Assembly (NCBI RefSeq): GCF_055900595.2
Contig: NZ_CM148325.1
Reading direction: 5' to 3' (one strand)
DNA length: 64,000 bases
Shown: piece by piece, positions 2,662 to 8,462 of the stretch
Layout of the letters: the number at the start of each line of letters is the position of its first letter
Numbering within the stretch: the first letter of the stretch is position 1
Program-made: the position numbers and the translations under genes
The notes under the pieces: model-generated
Told to the model about the DNA's origin: nothing
The model's input: only the letters and a program-made list of their open reading frames with translations
Database searches by the model: none

Positions 2662-3630
<969 letters not shown>

Positions 3631-5775
3631 TTAAAGCGCGCAGGAGACGCAGCCTTCAATTTCAGTACCTTCCAGCGCCATCTGACGCAGGCGGATGTAG
3701 TAGAGCGTTTTGATACCTTTACGCCAGGCATAAATCTGCGCTTTGTTGATATCGCGAGTGGTGGCGGTATCAGGGAAAAACAGCGTCAGCGACAGTCCCT
3801 GATCGACATGGCGAGTCGCTTCGGCGTAGGTGTCGATGATCTTTTCTGCGCCGATTTCGTAAGCGTCCTGATACAGCGCCAGATTCTCGTTAGTCATAAA
3901 TGGGGCAGGGTAGTAAACGCGTCCTGTTTTGCCTTCTTTGCGTATCTCTACTTTCGCCACAATCGGATGAATACTCGACGTGGCATGGTTGATATAAGAG
4001 ATGGAGCCGGTTGGCGGCACTGCCTGGAGATTCTGGTTGTAAATGCCATAGCGCATCACGTCGTCGCGCAGTTGCGCCCACATTTCGCGGGTAGGTAACG
4101 TGATACTGCTACGAGCAAACAACTCGCCAACTTTCGCCGTTTTCGGTTGCCAGTTACCTTGCAGATATTGGCTAAAATATTCACCGCTGGCATAGCGTGA
4201 CTGTTTGAACCCGGCGAAGGTTTCACCGCGTTCGCGCGCCAGCAACATTGAGGTACGCAGCGCGTGCCAGGTGATGGTGTAGAAATAGAGATTGGTGAAA
4301 TCCAGTGCTTCCGGCGAACCATAGGCGATGCCTTCTCGCGCCAGGTAACCGTGTAAATTCATCTGCCCCAGCCCGATGGCGTGTGAGGCGGCATTTCCGG
4401 CTTCGATGGACGGCACGCTGCGAATATGACTCATATCTGACACCGCAGTTAAACCGCGTACGGCGATCTCTACCGTGCGGGCAAAGTCGGGGGAATCCAT
4501 GGTGTGGGCAATATTCAACGAACCTAAATTGCAGGAAATATCATGGCCTGTGCGGGCATAGTCGAGATTCTCGTCATACTCTGAGGCGCTGTTAACCTGC
4601 AAAATTTCTGAGCAGAGATTGCTCATATTTATACGCCCGGCAATAGGGTTAGCACGGTTAACCGTGTCTTCATACATGATGTAGGGATAGCCGGATTCAA
4701 ACTGGATCTCCGCCAGCCGCTGGAAGAAATCACGGGCGTTGATGTATTTTTTGCGGATGCGTTCATCGGCAACCAGTTCGTCATAGTGTTCGCTGATGGC
4801 GATATCGGCAAACGGCTTGCCATAAACTCGCTCAACGTCATAGGGCGAAAACAGCGCCATCTTCGCATTCTCTTTTGCCAGATGGAAGGTGATATCCGGG
4901 ATAACCACGCCCAGCGACAGTGTTTTAATGCGGATTTTCTCGTCGGCATTTTCCCGCTTTGTATCGAGAAAACGCAGAATATCGGGATGATGAGCATGTA
5001 AATAGACTGCGCCAGCACCCTGACGAGCGCCGAGCTGGTTGGCATAAGAAAATGCGTCCTCCAGCATTTTCATCACCGGAATCACGCCAGAGGATTGATT
5101 TTCAATACGTTTAATTGGTGCGCCCGCTTCCCGCAGATTCGACAGCAAAAATGCCACGCCGCCGCCGCGTTTCGACAGTTGTAGTGCGGAATTTACTGCC
5201 CGGCCAATCGACTCCATATTGTCTTCAATACGCAGCAAAAAACAGGAAACCAGTTCGCCACGCTGCTGTTTACCGCAGTTGAGGAATGTCGGTGTTGCAG
5301 GCTGAAAGCGTCCTGACAGCATCTCATCGGTCAGTTGCGTCGCCAGTGTTTCATCGCCTTGTGCCAGCGTCAGCGCCACCATCGTGACTCGATCGGCAAA
5401 ATCTTCCAGATAACGCTTACCGTCGAATGTCTTCAACGTATAGCTGGTGTAAAACTTCCATGCTCCGAGGAATGTCTGAAAACGAAAACCGCTGGCGTGT
5501 GCGTGGGCAAACAGTGTAATGACAAAATCGCGAGAGTAGCGGTTGAGGACGTTTTCATCATAGTAACCTTCGTTGACCAGCCAGTTCAGGCGCTGCTGCT
5601 GGCTACTGAAGGTCACACTGTTCGGGCGTACATGCGTCGCCATAAAGGCGTCAACGGCCTGGCGATCTTTATCGAACTGAATGCGACCTGCGCTATCGTA
5701 AAGGTTAAGCATCGCATTCAGAGCGTGGTAATCCATCGTTTCCTGCGTCAGGCGTTCTGCGGTTGTCGTTGCCAA
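3631..5775 (-). CDS. nrdE: Class Ib ribonucleotide reductase alpha subunit NrdE
   Basis: 714-aa ORF with RNR large-subunit motifs and C-terminal redox cysteines (CVSCAL). Confidence 0.9.
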
Positions 5776-6158
5776 AATTCGGTTACTCCTTTACGAACGT
5801 TTTCGATATCGCTTTGCGTACCCATGAGTTCAAAGCGGTACAGCCACGGCACGCCGCATTTCCGGGCTATCACATCTCCGGCGCGGCCATACGCCTCACC
5901 AAAGTTGCGATTACCCGAAGCAATAACGCCGCGAAGCAACGCCCGGTTGTGCTCGTCGTTTAAAAAGCGAATTACCTGTCGTGGCACCGCGCCAGCCGTA
6001 CCGCCGCCGCCGTAAGAGGGCACGATCAGGATGTAAGGCTCGTCTACCTGAATCCGTTCCCGCTCATTGAGCGGGATGCGCACCGCGGGCAGTCCTAAAC
6101 GTTCGATAAAACGCTGCGTATTTTCGGAGCTGCTGGAAAAGTAGACGAGTTGGCTCAT
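5748..6158 (-). CDS. nrdI: Flavodoxin-like RNR stimulatory protein NrdI
   Basis: 136-aa ORF overlapping nrdE start, as in nrdHIEF. Confidence 0.85.
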
Positions 6159-6400
6159 GCACTGGCCGCGTGTGGCGCTGGATGCAGACGATTGATCATG
6201 TCCGGGCGGAAACCAGACCAGCTAAGATCGCCTGCAATCACTACCGGCAACTGACGAAAGCCCTGAGCACGTAACGCTTCCGCCGCTTCAGGAACGCGAT
6301 CGACATTAATCATTTCAAAATCAAAGCCCCGGTTTTCCATCGCCCGTTTGGTGGCGTGGCACTGAACGCAATCGTTACGAGTGTAAATAGTAATGCGCAT
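6155..6400 (-). CDS. nrdH: Glutaredoxin-like protein NrdH
   Basis: 81-aa ORF with CVQC redox motif ([18 protein letters not shown]). Confidence 0.9.
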
Positions 6401-6608
6401 GATTCGTATTTCCGTTTAAAATGAAGATACGGCGCGATGATACGCGTCGGGTTGTCTCTCTGTTGATACAGAGATACTAGATGTAGTTGAAAAAAGATTC
6501 AACCATACAAGATATGGGAATTTTAGATTGATTACACCACCGATGAATGGCTCAACGGGGTAGGGGATTTTGTGTTTTTTTGCCGGGTGATTGCCCGGCA
6601 TCAGGAAG

Positions 6609-7040
6609 TTACATCCGCATGGAAACGGCCAGGCGGTTAAAGCAATTCATCAGCCCGATGGCAAATGTTAAGTCGCTGATTTCTGCTGCGCTGAAATGCT
6701 CAAGCAAAGGCTGATAAACGTCGTCTTCCGCATGGGTTCGGGCAATATCGGTCACCGATTCCGCCCATGCCAGCGCCGCCCGCTCGCGATCGTCAAAATG
6801 ATGGCTTACGCGCCAGCCTGCCAGGGCATCCAGCTTATGCTGCGGCACACCGGATTTGCGTAATGCTTTGCTGTGCATCTCCAGACAAAATGCGCAACCA
6901 TTGATTTGCGAGACGCGCAAATAAACTAACTCCATCAGCGTAGTTTCCAGCGTGCTATTTTCCAGCGCCGTTTTGGCCTGCACCAGCGCGTTATATACCG
7001 TTGGGCTAAGTTCGTAGTAAGGCTGACGTAATGTAGTCAT
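6609..7040 (-). CDS. Carboxymuconolactone decarboxylase (AhpD-like) family protein
   Basis: 143-aa ORF with the CMD/AhpD-type motif NGCAFCLEMH. Confidence 0.7.
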   Translation of the reverse strand: MTTLRQPYYELSPTVYNALVQAKTALENSTLETTLMELVYLRVSQINGCAFCLEMHSKALRKSGVPQHKLDALAGWRVSHHFDDRERAALAWAESVTDIARTHAEDDVYQPLLEHFSAAEISDLTFAIGLMNCFNRLAVSMRM

Positions 7041-7127
7041 ACAGTTTCTCCTCTTATTAACGCCCGCAATGTAGCACTATAATGGACTGCTAAAGAGAGC
7101 CATAAATTACCTAAAAAAGCAGACCAT

Positions 7128-8462
7128 ATGCCGCGCTATCAGGATATCGCCCGTCAGTTAAAAACGGCTATTGAGCAAGGGGAACTGAAACCCGGCGCAA
7201 GGCTACCTTCAAGTCGTACCTGGTCGCAGGAACTGGGGATGTCTCGATCCACTGTCGAAAATGCGTATGCTGAGCTGGTGGCGCAAGGATGGCTGATCAG
7301 GCGGGGACAGGCTGGCACATTTGTCAGTGAGCAGATATATCCACAACAATCTACTGTACAAGTTGTGGCTTTTGCCGGTGAAAGTCAGCAACCGTTGCCA
7401 TTTCAAATGGGATTACCCGCACTCGATCTCTTTCCGCGAGAGCTGTGGGCGCGGGTGATGGGGCGTCGCCTTCGTACCCAGACGCGCTTTGATTTGGCTT
7501 TAGGCGATGTCTGCGGTGAGGCGGCGTTGCGTGAGGCAATAGTTGATTACTTACGCGTTTCACGTGGGATTGATTGTCAGCCAGAGCAGGTCTTTATCAC
7601 TCACGGTTATGCGGCCTCAATGGCTTTAATTCTGCACGCGCTGGCGAAACCGGGAAACGGGATGTGGATGGAAGATCCCGGCTTTCCACTGATTCGCCCG
7701 ATTGTCACTCGCCACGGTGTGGAAATTTTGCCTGTGCCGGTTGATGACAACGGACTGGATATCACAAGCGGAATACAAAATTATCCTGATGCGTGTTTTG
7801 CCCTGATAACACCAGCACACCAAAGCCCGCTGGGTGTGGCGCTCTCTTTAGCGCGCAGGCATCAGATACTGGAATGGGCAGAGCGTAGTCAGGCATGGAT
7901 TATTGAAGATGATTATGACAGTGAGTTTCGCTATCACGGTAAGCCGTTACCGGCGTTAAAAAGTCTCGATGCACCGCAGCGGGTAATTTATGCCGGAACA
8001 TTCAGCAAAGCACTATTTCCTGCATTGCGCTGTGCGTGGCTGGTGGTGCCGGTGAAGCAAATTGCACAATTCCGCCACCAGGCGTCACTGGCTCCATGTG
8101 CGGTACCTGTTCTATGGCAGAACACACTGGCAGACTTTCTTCGCGAGGGGCATTTCTGGCGGCATCTGAAGAAAATGCGTCAGCATTATGCTCAACGTCG
8201 GCAATGGATTGAGCAAGCGTTGACGCAGCAGGGATTTCAGGTTGTGCCGCAGAAAGGTGGTATCCAGATGGTGATCAGAATGATGGGCGATGATATTGCC
8301 CATGCGCGTAAAGCCAATGCTGCAGGCCTTGCGGTGCAGGCACTTAGCGACTGGCGTATCCGCTCAAGTGGGGAAGGTGGATTACTTCTCTCTTTTACCA
8401 ATATCGTTAACGAAGGTATGGCGCGACAGGTAGCACAACAATTACGTAAAGCCTTAAGCTAA
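7128..8462 (+). CDS. MocR/GabR-type regulator (GntR wHTH fused to PLP-dependent aminotransferase-like domain)
   Basis: 444-aa ORF; N-terminal GntR-like HTH, C-terminal fold-type-I aminotransferase region with candidate PLP lysine (TFSKAL). Confidence 0.75.
   Translation: MPRYQDIARQLKTAIEQGELKPGARLPSSRTWSQELGMSRSTVENAYAELVAQGWLIRRGQAGTFVSEQIYPQQSTVQVVAFAGESQQPLPFQMGLPALDLFPRELWARVMGRRLRTQTRFDLALGDVCGEAALREAIVDYLRVSRGIDCQPEQVFITHGYAASMALILHALAKPGNGMWMEDPGFPLIRPIVTRHGVEILPVPVDDNGLDITSGIQNYPDACFALITPAHQSPLGVALSLARRHQILEWAERSQAWIIEDDYDSEFRYHGKPLPALKSLDAPQRVIYAGTFSKALFPALRCAWLVVPVKQIAQFRHQASLAPCAVPVLWQNTLADFLREGHFWRHLKKMRQHYAQRRQWIEQALTQQGFQVVPQKGGIQMVIRMMGDDIAHARKANAAGLAVQALSDWRIRSSGEGGLLLSFTNIVNEGMARQVAQQLRKALS

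What the first reader, a model, noticed from the sequence alone, without database searches (positions are those of the whole stretch)
6457..6474. Perfect 6-6-6 inverted repeat in the nrdH upstream region
TCTCTG-TTGATA-CAGAGA lies about 60-75 bp upstream of the nrdH start, in the region expected to hold nrdHIEF control sites. It does not match the Fur box or the NrdR box as I remember them, so it may be a binding site for another regulator, or a chance palindrome. It also lies close to the variable AhpD-like/MocR junction.
Basis: seen in the sequence. Interest (0 to 1): 0.25.

Follow-up and report, generated by a model that had tools for sequence, protein, structure and literature searches.

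The report
Quasi-palindrome over the nrdHIEF start site
The reported inverted repeat is real, but it is the core of a 24-bp near-palindrome lying on the probable transcription start of the E. coli nrdHIEF operon, found only in Escherichia and best explained as ordinary promoter DNA shaped by hairpin-templated mutation rather than as a new regulator site.

Summary
The palindrome is present at 6457-6474 and lies 57-74 nt upstream of nrdH, which is on the minus strand. It is larger than reported. It is a perfect 7-4-7 repeat inside a 24-bp 10-4-10 quasi-palindrome (6454-6477) with one mismatch.

It starts at the last base of NrdR box 2 and of the -10 hexamer TAGTAT. Its centre holds the predicted +1, so the upstream arm is not transcribed from this promoter.

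It matches no Fur, NrdR, IscR, LexA, FNR or CRP consensus. K-12 has it identically, so it is unrelated to the AhpD-like/MocR indel, whose junction is at least 100 bp away.

Across 80 Enterobacteriaceae species the flanking -35, NrdR box 2/-10, a downstream GC hairpin and the Shine-Dalgarno (SD) block are conserved. The palindrome columns are the least conserved, and only Escherichia carries the repeat. E. albertii has a perfect 10-4-10 in a register shifted by 1 nt.

Within E. coli it is the most polymorphic local segment. Two alleles break it. Two others correct the single mismatch, one from each arm, and one of these occurs on both upstream haplotypes.

This fits quasi-palindrome template-switch mutagenesis rather than a conserved operator. 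Interest is low.

The parts
6457..6474 (.). The reported inverted repeat. It is a perfect 7-4-7: TCTCTGT-ATCA-ACAGAGA on the nrdH (minus) strand.
6454..6477 (.). 24-bp quasi-palindrome, 10-4-10 with one A x G mismatch (6475 x 6456): GTaTCTCTGT-ATCA-ACAGAGAgAC on the minus strand.
   Evidence: Natural alleles A6475C and G6456T make it perfect.
6474..6479 (-). -10 hexamer TAGTAT of the nrdHIEF promoter (inferred). Its last base is the first base of the 7-bp arm, and its last four bases lie in the 10-bp arm.
   Evidence: TTGAAT-17 nt-TAGTAT read. CATCTAGTAT is invariant in 82 loci.
6497..6502 (-). -35 hexamer TTGAAT (inferred), embedded in the IscR type II site.
   Evidence: PMC8561392. Best IscR type II match at 6523..6498.
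6474..6489 (-). NrdR box 2, CAACTACATCTAGTAT.
   Evidence: K-12 oligo in PMC12176259. Identical in the window.
6505..6520 (-). NrdR box 1, TTCCCATATCTTGTAT in this haplotype. K-12 has TTGCTATATATTGTGT.
6467..6467 (-). Predicted transcription start. It is an A, 7 nt downstream of the -10 element and preceded by a T. It is the first base of the 4-nt centre of the palindrome. Alternatives are A6464 and A6463.
   Evidence: Inference from the TSS-selection rules in PMC5730371. No experimental TSS could be retrieved.
6430..6449 (-). Conserved GC hairpin in the nrdH leader, CGACGCG-TATCAT-CGCGCCG. It is not part of the palindrome and is listed for context.
6155..6400 (-). nrdH coding sequence, the first gene of nrdHIEF.

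Best explanation
The repeat is ordinary core-promoter DNA of nrdHIEF that happens to be self-complementary.

Anatomy:
- The upstream arm is the end of the -10 hexamer and of NrdR box 2, plus the pyrimidine-rich discriminator.
- The 4-nt centre carries the transcription start.
- The downstream arm is the initial transcribed sequence, about +5 to +14.

The symmetry is specific to Escherichia. It is most likely created and maintained by quasi-palindrome template-switch mutation, in which a stalled polymerase copies one arm from the other and so makes imperfect repeats more perfect. It is probably not maintained by a protein that reads it or by an RNA hairpin.

Shown here: the position relative to NrdR box 2; the lack of conservation outside Escherichia; the high polymorphism within E. 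coli; and the alleles that perfect the palindrome from either arm.

Inferred: the -10/-35 assignment, the +1 position, and template switching as the mutational cause.
For: 1. Position. NrdR box 2, as defined by the K-12 oligo in PMC12176259, ends exactly at the first base of the repeat (sequence). TTGAAT-17 nt-TAGTAT is kept in all 82 loci. TSS rules (PMC5730371) put +1 on A6467, in the centre of the repeat.

2. No known motif. Fur 10/19, LexA 11/20, IscR type II 14/24, FNR 7/10, CRP 6/10, NrdR 38 against 60-66 for the real boxes. IscR's site overlaps the -35 element (PMC8561392). There is no second copy of the motif in the window.

3. Not conserved across genera. The palindrome columns are the least conserved in the 82-sequence alignment. 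The helix is paired in 43.9% of cells. Genera other than Escherichia have a best repeat of 2-4 bp there, which equals the shuffle expectation. RNAalifold predicts no helix there.

4. Within E. coli. The palindrome 30-mer is changed in about 9.7% of 5426 genomes, against 5.6% for the box 2/-35 30-mer and 0.8% for the GC-hairpin 30-mer. 248 genomes carry a pair-breaking A6459T.

5. Signature of templated mutation.
- The single mismatch is corrected from one arm by G6456T (129 genomes) and from the other arm by A6475C (10 genomes).
- G6456T occurs on both upstream haplotypes.
- E. albertii differs from E. coli at 6 of 115 positions. Five of these lie in the 24-bp element, and together they give a perfect 10-4-10 shifted by 1 nt.
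- Literature: quasi-palindrome mutations make repeats more perfect (PMC7202029), and perfect repeats in proteobacteria are attributed to preferential correction by template switching (PMC5941160).
Against: - No experimental TSS could be read. Jordan 1996, Monje-Casas 2001, Torrents 2007 and Martin & Imlay 2011 are not held, so +1 is inferred.
- E. albertii keeps a perfect palindrome through five changes (9 of 10 strains), and two E. coli alleles perfect the repeat. Selection for symmetry could produce the same pattern, so a function is not excluded.
- Allele counts are counts of genomes, not of independent mutational events.
- About 138 variant genomes were not typed.
- Template switching itself was not demonstrated. 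Only its expected footprint was seen.
Confidence: 0.6

Rival explanations
1. Pure coincidence with no mutational bias. A (TC)n-type discriminator and a (GA)n-type initial transcribed region happen to be complementary, and the variants are ordinary neutral substitutions.
For: - Repeats of this size are common: 33 perfect 6-6-6 repeats in the window, and 41 centres with quasi-palindromes as good as this one.
- Observed/expected is only 1.07-1.39 for 6-7 bp arms in MG1655.
- The arms are low-complexity. Other genera have TCTCTCT or TCCTTTT followed by ACACACAC at the same place.
Against: - Only 2 of the 72 possible single substitutions in the 24 bp would perfect the palindrome, and both are among the four alleles identified. 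By my arithmetic this has a probability of about 0.002 for four random alleles.
- Five E. albertii changes jointly give a perfect 10-4-10.
- A quasi-palindrome this good appears in only about 0.2% of composition-matched shuffles of this 38-nt segment.
Confidence: 0.17
2. A functional DNA or RNA hairpin specific to Escherichia. One form is cruciform or non-template-strand hairpin formation at the start site that tunes open-complex formation or promoter escape. Another is a stem-loop in transcripts that read through from the upstream gene.
For: - The symmetry, rather than the sequence, is kept between E. coli and E. albertii, and the register shifts.
- The predicted stem is stable if formed: RNA -7.7 and DNA -5.3 kcal/mol for the 7-4-7 core.
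- In this haplotype a gene in the same orientation (CMD/AhpD-like, 6609-7040) lies upstream with no canonical terminator.
Against: - From the nrdH promoter itself the 5' arm is not transcribed, because +1 is inferred to lie in the centre.
- Pair-breaking alleles persist in at least 248 genomes, and E. whittamii has a mismatch.
- The structure is absent from all other genera, which share the same promoter architecture.
- Arms of 10 bp are short for cruciform extrusion in vivo (my own knowledge).
- Term-seq shows only the ygaM terminator 3' end upstream of nrdH in K-12.
Confidence: 0.12
3. An operator for an unidentified dimeric repressor that sits over +1 and adds a further layer of nrdHIEF control in Escherichia.
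For: - An 18-24 bp dyad centred on the start site is the classic geometry of a repressor operator.
- nrdHIEF is known to integrate several regulators: NrdR, Fur and IscR.
Against: - There is no match to any consensus tested and no second copy in the window.
- The half-site spacing differs by 2 bp between E. coli and E. albertii.
- The repeat is absent from other Enterobacteriaceae, which share the NrdR, IscR and -10 architecture.
- It is the most polymorphic local segment in E. coli.
- No paper held in the library prints or discusses this sequence.
Confidence: 0.07
4. An extension of the NrdR operator, that is, extra contacts or a third box downstream of box 2.
For: - The repeat abuts box 2 directly and overlaps it by 1-4 bp.
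- The A6475C allele changes a base of box 2.
Against: - The NrdR score is 38 against 60-66 for the real boxes.
- The nrdAB and nrdDG oligos show no comparable dyad after their box 2.
- NrdR boxes come as pairs separated by a 15-bp linker (PMC12176259), equivalent to 31-32 bp between boxes. This dyad follows box 2 with no spacer.
- Box 2 is invariant across genera while the dyad is not.
Confidence: 0.04

Closest known systems
Quasi-palindrome (QP) template-switch mutational hotspots in E. coli (Lovett-laboratory lacZ QP reporters, PMC7202029; genome-wide correction of inverted repeats, PMC5941160)
   Same: - It is an imperfect inverted repeat with a short spacer.
- Natural alleles convert it to a perfect repeat, from either arm.
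- One perfecting allele occurs on two haplotypes.
- A clustered multi-base change in E. albertii preserves the symmetry.
   Different: - Here the evidence is only population and comparative sequence. No mutation rates or genetic dependencies were measured.
- Pair-breaking alleles are as common as perfecting ones.
NrdR box pair of the nrdHIEF promoter (PMC12176259; Rodionov and Gelfand consensus, quoted from my own knowledge)
   Same: It is a palindromic element in the same promoter and directly adjacent to box 2.
   Different: - The sequence is unrelated.
- There is no partner at 31-32 bp.
- It is not conserved, whereas box 2 is invariant in 82 loci.
Operators centred on the transcription start, of the kind used by LacI/TetR-type repressors (general knowledge)
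   Same: It is an 18-24 bp dyad overlapping -10 to +14.
   Different: - No cognate protein is known.
- It is not conserved.
- The half-site spacing varies within the genus.
LexA SOS box, CTGT-N8-ACAG (general knowledge)
   Same: It contains CTGT....ACAG.
   Different: The spacer is 4 nt rather than 8, and the match to the 20-mer consensus is 11/20.
5'-terminal stabilising stem-loops of mRNAs, such as the ompA leader (general knowledge)
   Same: It would be a stable hairpin at the extreme 5' end if both arms were transcribed.
   Different: The inferred +1 lies in the loop, so the 5' arm is absent from the nrdH transcript.

Membership tests
NrdR box | Match to the 16-bp palindromic NrdR consensus | tested here: not met
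   Using position counts from the six E. coli boxes, the palindrome scores 38, against 66 for box 2 and 60 for box 1.
NrdR box | Boxes occur as a pair separated by a 15-16 bp linker (31-32 bp apart) | tested here: not met
   The dyad follows box 2 with no spacer. The true pair is 6520-6505 and 6489-6474.
NrdR box | Conserved upstream of nrd operons across species | tested here: not met
   Box 2 is invariant in 82 loci, while the palindrome columns are the least conserved.
Fur box | Match to the 19-bp consensus GATAATGATAATCATTATC | tested here: not met
   The best overlap is 10/19, equal to the best background matches in the region. The literature places Fur sites upstream.
IscR type II site | Match to AWARCCCYTSnGTTTGMnGKKKTKWA, with the -35 element embedded in the right half-site | tested here: not met
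   The palindrome scores 14/24. The best match in the region, 16/24, is at 6523..6498 over the -35 element, as described in PMC8561392.
LexA SOS box | CTGT-N8-ACAG spacing | tested here: not met
   The spacer is 4 nt and the match is 11/20.
Conserved cis-regulatory site (phylogenetic footprint) | Sequence or pairing kept in orthologous promoters of related genera | tested here: not met
   The three central pairs form in about 11-17 of 82 sequences. The best repeat outside Escherichia is 2-4 bp, equal to the null.
RNA hairpin, terminator or leader structure | Both arms are transcribed | tested here: inconclusive
   +1 is inferred at A6467, in the centre, from TSS rules. No experimental TSS was available.
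RNA hairpin, terminator or leader structure | Covariation, or membership of a known RNA family | tested here: not met
   No Rfam match. RNAalifold predicts no helix. There is no U-tract after the stem.
Quasi-palindrome template-switch hotspot | Imperfect inverted repeat with a short spacer | tested here: met
   10-4-10 with one mismatch.
Quasi-palindrome template-switch hotspot | Mutations that make the repeat more perfect, templated from either arm | tested here: met
   A6475C in 10 genomes and G6456T in 129 genomes correct the same mismatch from opposite arms. G6456T is on two haplotypes.
Quasi-palindrome template-switch hotspot | Raised mutation rate that depends on the partner arm and on replication or exonuclease genotype | not testable with these tools
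   This needs fluctuation or mutation-accumulation experiments.

The most novel reading that the evidence does not exclude
The 24-bp dyad is a functional, Escherichia-specific switch at the nrdHIEF start site. It would be either an operator for an unidentified repressor or a supercoiling-sensitive hairpin. Its symmetry would be under selection, which would explain why E. albertii rebuilt it in a new register and why E. coli lineages repeatedly perfect it. This would add an unrecognised layer to control of the class Ib ribonucleotide reductase.
Probability: 0.08. Interest if true: 0.45.

Novelty: new member of a known kind. Interest (0 to 1): 0.15.

Why it matters
The biological stakes are small.

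- It removes a candidate 'extra regulator site' from a well-studied promoter.
- It places the repeat precisely: it abuts NrdR box 2 and the -10 hexamer and spans the probable +1.
- It offers a neat natural example of a quasi-palindrome whose single mismatch has been corrected from both arms in wild E. coli lineages. One of those corrections (A6475C, in ETEC H10407) falls in the -10 hexamer and NrdR box 2 and could alter nrdHIEF expression in that lineage.

If the symmetry proved functional, it would reveal genus-specific control of the manganese-dependent backup ribonucleotide reductase.

Tried and rejected
Experimental TSS:
- I tried Torrents 2007, Monje-Casas 2001, Martin & Imlay 2011, Thomason 2015, Kroeger 2012 and 2013, and Seo 2014. 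None is held.
- The Cappable-seq GTF is truncated before 2.8 Mb.
- The supplements of Kim 2012, Mendoza-Vargas 2009 and Conway 2014 contain no nrdH TSS.
- A full-text search for the sequence itself found nothing.

Other checks that led nowhere or were rejected:
- Rfam scan: only a noise hit.
- Attenuator idea: Term-seq shows no 3' end in the leader.
- Junction or att-site idea: rejected, because K-12 has the identical repeat and the indel junction is at least 100 bp upstream.
- LexA, FNR and CRP resemblance: rejected on spacing and score.
- A variant count with the mismatch 2 nt from the query end was uninformative, because BLAST trims the end. I replaced it with the exact 28/30-mer design.
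- The weak internal sigma-70-like match whose -35 overlaps the repeat is not above the shuffle expectation.

Full report
**Observation.** The window is E. coli: 5421 of 5426 complete genomes match the region. nrdHIEF lies on the minus strand, with nrdH at 6400..6155, nrdI at 6158..5748, nrdE at 5775..3631 and nrdF at 3621..2662. The reported TCTCTG-TTGATA-CAGAGA is at 6457-6474, 57-74 nt upstream of the nrdH ATG. The outer loop bases also pair, which gives a perfect 7-4-7, TCTCTGT-ATCA-ACAGAGA. Beyond one A x G mismatch the arms continue to a 24-bp 10-4-10 quasi-palindrome, GTaTCTCTGT-ATCA-ACAGAGAgAC, at minus-strand 6477..6454.

**Chance.** Repeats of this class are common.
- The window has 33 perfect 6-6-6 repeats (naive expectation 15.6) and 10 perfect 7-4-7 repeats (3.9).
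- It has 79 repeats with 7-bp arms and loops of 3-8, against 24.5 +/- 5 in shuffles. Quasi-palindromes as good as this one occur at 41 centres.
- The chance of one in the 208-bp intergenic region is 1-6%, depending on how narrowly the class is defined.
- In MG1655 non-coding DNA the observed/expected ratio for 6-7 bp arms is only 1.07-1.39 (PMC5941160).

**Position relative to known control elements.**
- The K-12 NrdR-binding oligo in PMC12176259 reads ACTAT-[TTGCTATATATTGTGT]-GGTTGAATCTTTTTT-[CAACTACATCTAGTAT]-CTCTG. In the window, box 2 is therefore 6489..6474, the linker is 6504..6490 and box 1 is 6520..6505. The repeat begins at the last base of box 2.
- TTGAAT (6502..6497), a 17-nt spacer and TAGTAT (6479..6474) form a sigma-70 promoter. 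Its key bases are invariant in 82 aligned loci.
- NrdR boxes are described as overlapping the core promoter (bioRxiv 10.1101/2025.03.28.645925).
- The IscR type II site has the -35 hexamer embedded in it (PMC8561392). My scan places the best IscR match at 6523..6498.
- Published Fur sites lie further upstream.
- TSS-selection rules give a modal start 7 bp downstream of the -10 element, on a purine preceded by a pyrimidine, with pyrimidine-rich discriminators shifting the start downstream (PMC5730371). These rules put +1 at A6467, or at A6464 or A6463. All three lie in or beside the 4-nt centre of the dyad.
- On this inference the upstream arm is the end of the -10 hexamer plus the discriminator, and the downstream arm is about +5 to +14. 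A transcript from this promoter cannot contain both arms.
- I could not retrieve an experimental TSS. The attempts are listed under Tried and rejected.

**Motif comparison.** The dyad matches nothing better than background does: Fur 10/19, IscR type II 14/24, LexA 11/20 (CTGT-N4-ACAG, not N8), FNR 7/10, CRP 6/10, and NrdR 38 against 60-66 for the two real boxes. There is no second copy in the window, no Rfam hit, and no held paper that prints the sequence.

**Relation to the variable junction.** K-12-type strains have the identical sequence from the -35 element to the ATG. In MG1655 the dyad is at 2,800,649-2,800,666, with the nrdH ATG at 2,800,723. The CMD(AhpD-like)/MocR pair lies upstream of nrdH in 43 of 80 species loci, so it is an old presence/absence polymorphism. 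The two haplotypes become alignable again at CACAAAATCCCCTACCCCGT, which puts the indel junction at least 100 bp from the dyad.

**Conservation across species.** I fetched nrdH loci from 80 Enterobacteriaceae species and aligned the region from the -35 element to the ATG (A1).
- Invariant or nearly invariant: the -35 TTG, CATCTAGTAT (box 2/-10), a GC-rich stem (GACGCG...CGCGCC) and the SD/start block GGAAATACGAATCATG.
- The dyad columns are the least conserved in the alignment.
- The helix is paired in 43.9% of cells, and its three central pairs form in about 11-17 of 82 sequences.
- RNAalifold predicts no helix there.
- Only Escherichia has a repeat. All other genera show 2-4 bp, equal to the shuffle null. 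They carry TCTCTCT or TCCTTTT followed by ACACACAC in its place.

**Variation within Escherichia.**
- E. coli and two unnamed Escherichia species share the 10-4-10 with one mismatch. E. whittamii has an extra mismatch.
- E. albertii has a perfect 10-4-10, TATCTCTCTG-GTAA-CAGAGAGATA, shifted by 1 nt. It is present in 9 of 10 strains.
- Five of the six E. coli/E. albertii differences in 115 nt fall inside the 24 bp.
- The TCTCTG/CAGAGA spacing is 6 bp in E. coli and 4 bp in E. albertii. The same dimeric protein is therefore unlikely to read both.

**Variation within E. coli.** I used exact 28/30-mer searches of 5426 genomes. The dyad segment is changed in about 9.7% of genomes, the box 2/-35 segment in about 5.6% and the GC-hairpin segment in about 0.8%. 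The alleles identified (bases given on the minus strand) are:
- A6459T, 248 genomes, breaks a pair.
- G6458A, seen in one sampled genome, breaks a pair.
- G6456T, 129 genomes including Nissle 1917 and ATCC 25922, corrects the mismatch and gives a perfect 10-4-10.
- A6475C, 10 genomes including ETEC H10407, corrects the same mismatch from the other arm and alters the -10 hexamer and NrdR box 2.

G6456T lies on both upstream haplotypes. Only 2 of the 72 possible single substitutions would perfect the dyad, and both are among the four alleles seen. By my arithmetic the probability of that for four random alleles is about 0.002. These counts are of genomes, not of independent events, and about 138 variant genomes remain untyped.

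**Interpretation.**
- Three things argue against a conserved regulator site: the absence outside one genus, the high polymorphism and the variable half-site spacing.
- Three things match quasi-palindrome template-switch mutagenesis: the bias towards perfecting changes from either arm, one of them on two haplotypes, and the concerted re-registration in E. albertii.
- That mechanism makes imperfect repeats more perfect (PMC7202029). It has been proposed to explain the excess and persistence of perfect repeats in proteobacteria (PMC5941160).
- Selection for symmetry (a functional hairpin or operator) would leave a similar footprint and is not excluded. The persistence of pair-breaking alleles speaks against strong selection.

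**Verdict.** The 'other regulator' reading is not supported. The element is ordinary promoter DNA with an Escherichia-specific quasi-palindromic form. Interest is low (0.15).

Noticed in passing
window 6430-6449 (minus strand), about +19 to +38 of the predicted nrdH leader: A GC-rich hairpin, CGACGCG-TATCAT-CGCGCCG, is conserved across Enterobacteriaceae. The stem sequence is kept in about 73-76 of 82 loci and the loop varies freely. One A.C mismatch is conserved and becomes A-U in 8 loci. Compensatory changes occur in L039/L074, L071 and L077. It is the least polymorphic local 30-mer in E. coli, changed in 0.8% of genomes. It has no Rfam match, and no Term-seq 3' end was reported in the leader. 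Its function is unknown, and it looks more constrained than the reported palindrome.
   Followed up: partly
window 6398-6425 (minus strand): The SD/start block ...TTTTAAAYGGAAATACGAATCATG is nearly invariant in 82 species loci. That is more conserved than a ribosome-binding site usually needs to be.
   Followed up: no
window 6505-6585 and 6609-8462: Two old haplotypes exist upstream of nrdH. One has the CMD(AhpD-like)+MocR genes (43 of 80 species loci, and this window). The other has ygaM directly adjacent (K-12). NrdR box 1 differs between them (TTCCCATATCTTGTAT here, TTGCTATATATTGTGT in K-12). A 37-38-nt segment upstream of box 1, where a Fur site has been proposed, cannot be aligned between them. 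K-12's Fur-like AAATGATAATAAATAC next to the ygaM stop is more than 2 kb from nrdH in this haplotype, so Fur and IscR control may differ between haplotypes.
   Followed up: partly
window 6475 (minus-strand A); ETEC H10407 and 9 other genomes: The natural A-to-C allele changes the -10 hexamer from TAGTAT to TAGTCT and changes the penultimate base of NrdR box 2, while perfecting the quasi-palindrome. It might alter nrdHIEF expression in that lineage.
   Followed up: partly
window 6575-6598 (minus strand): A perfect 6-6-6 hairpin, GCCGGG-CAATCA-CCCGGC, lies just after the CMD gene stop. On the gene's strand it is followed by A7 rather than a T-run, so it is not a canonical terminator in that direction.
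   Followed up: no
L086 (E. coli P276M, NZ_CP044293.1): This strain has a rearranged nrdH promoter in which box 2 and the -10 element are replaced, and nrdH is annotated as a truncated pseudogene.
   Followed up: no
window 6437-6466 (minus strand): A weak sigma-70-like match (-35 TCAACA, 18 nt, -10 TATCAT) lies inside the leader and overlaps the downstream arm. It is no more than shuffles give: 1 found against 1.4 expected.
   Followed up: yes
PMC2892513 (Salmonella Typhimurium nrdHIEF): Mutating NrdR box 2 had no effect on nrdHIEF expression in Salmonella, while mutating box 1 derepressed it. This is odd if box 2 overlaps the -10 hexamer as inferred here. The mutation may also have damaged the promoter.
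   Followed up: no
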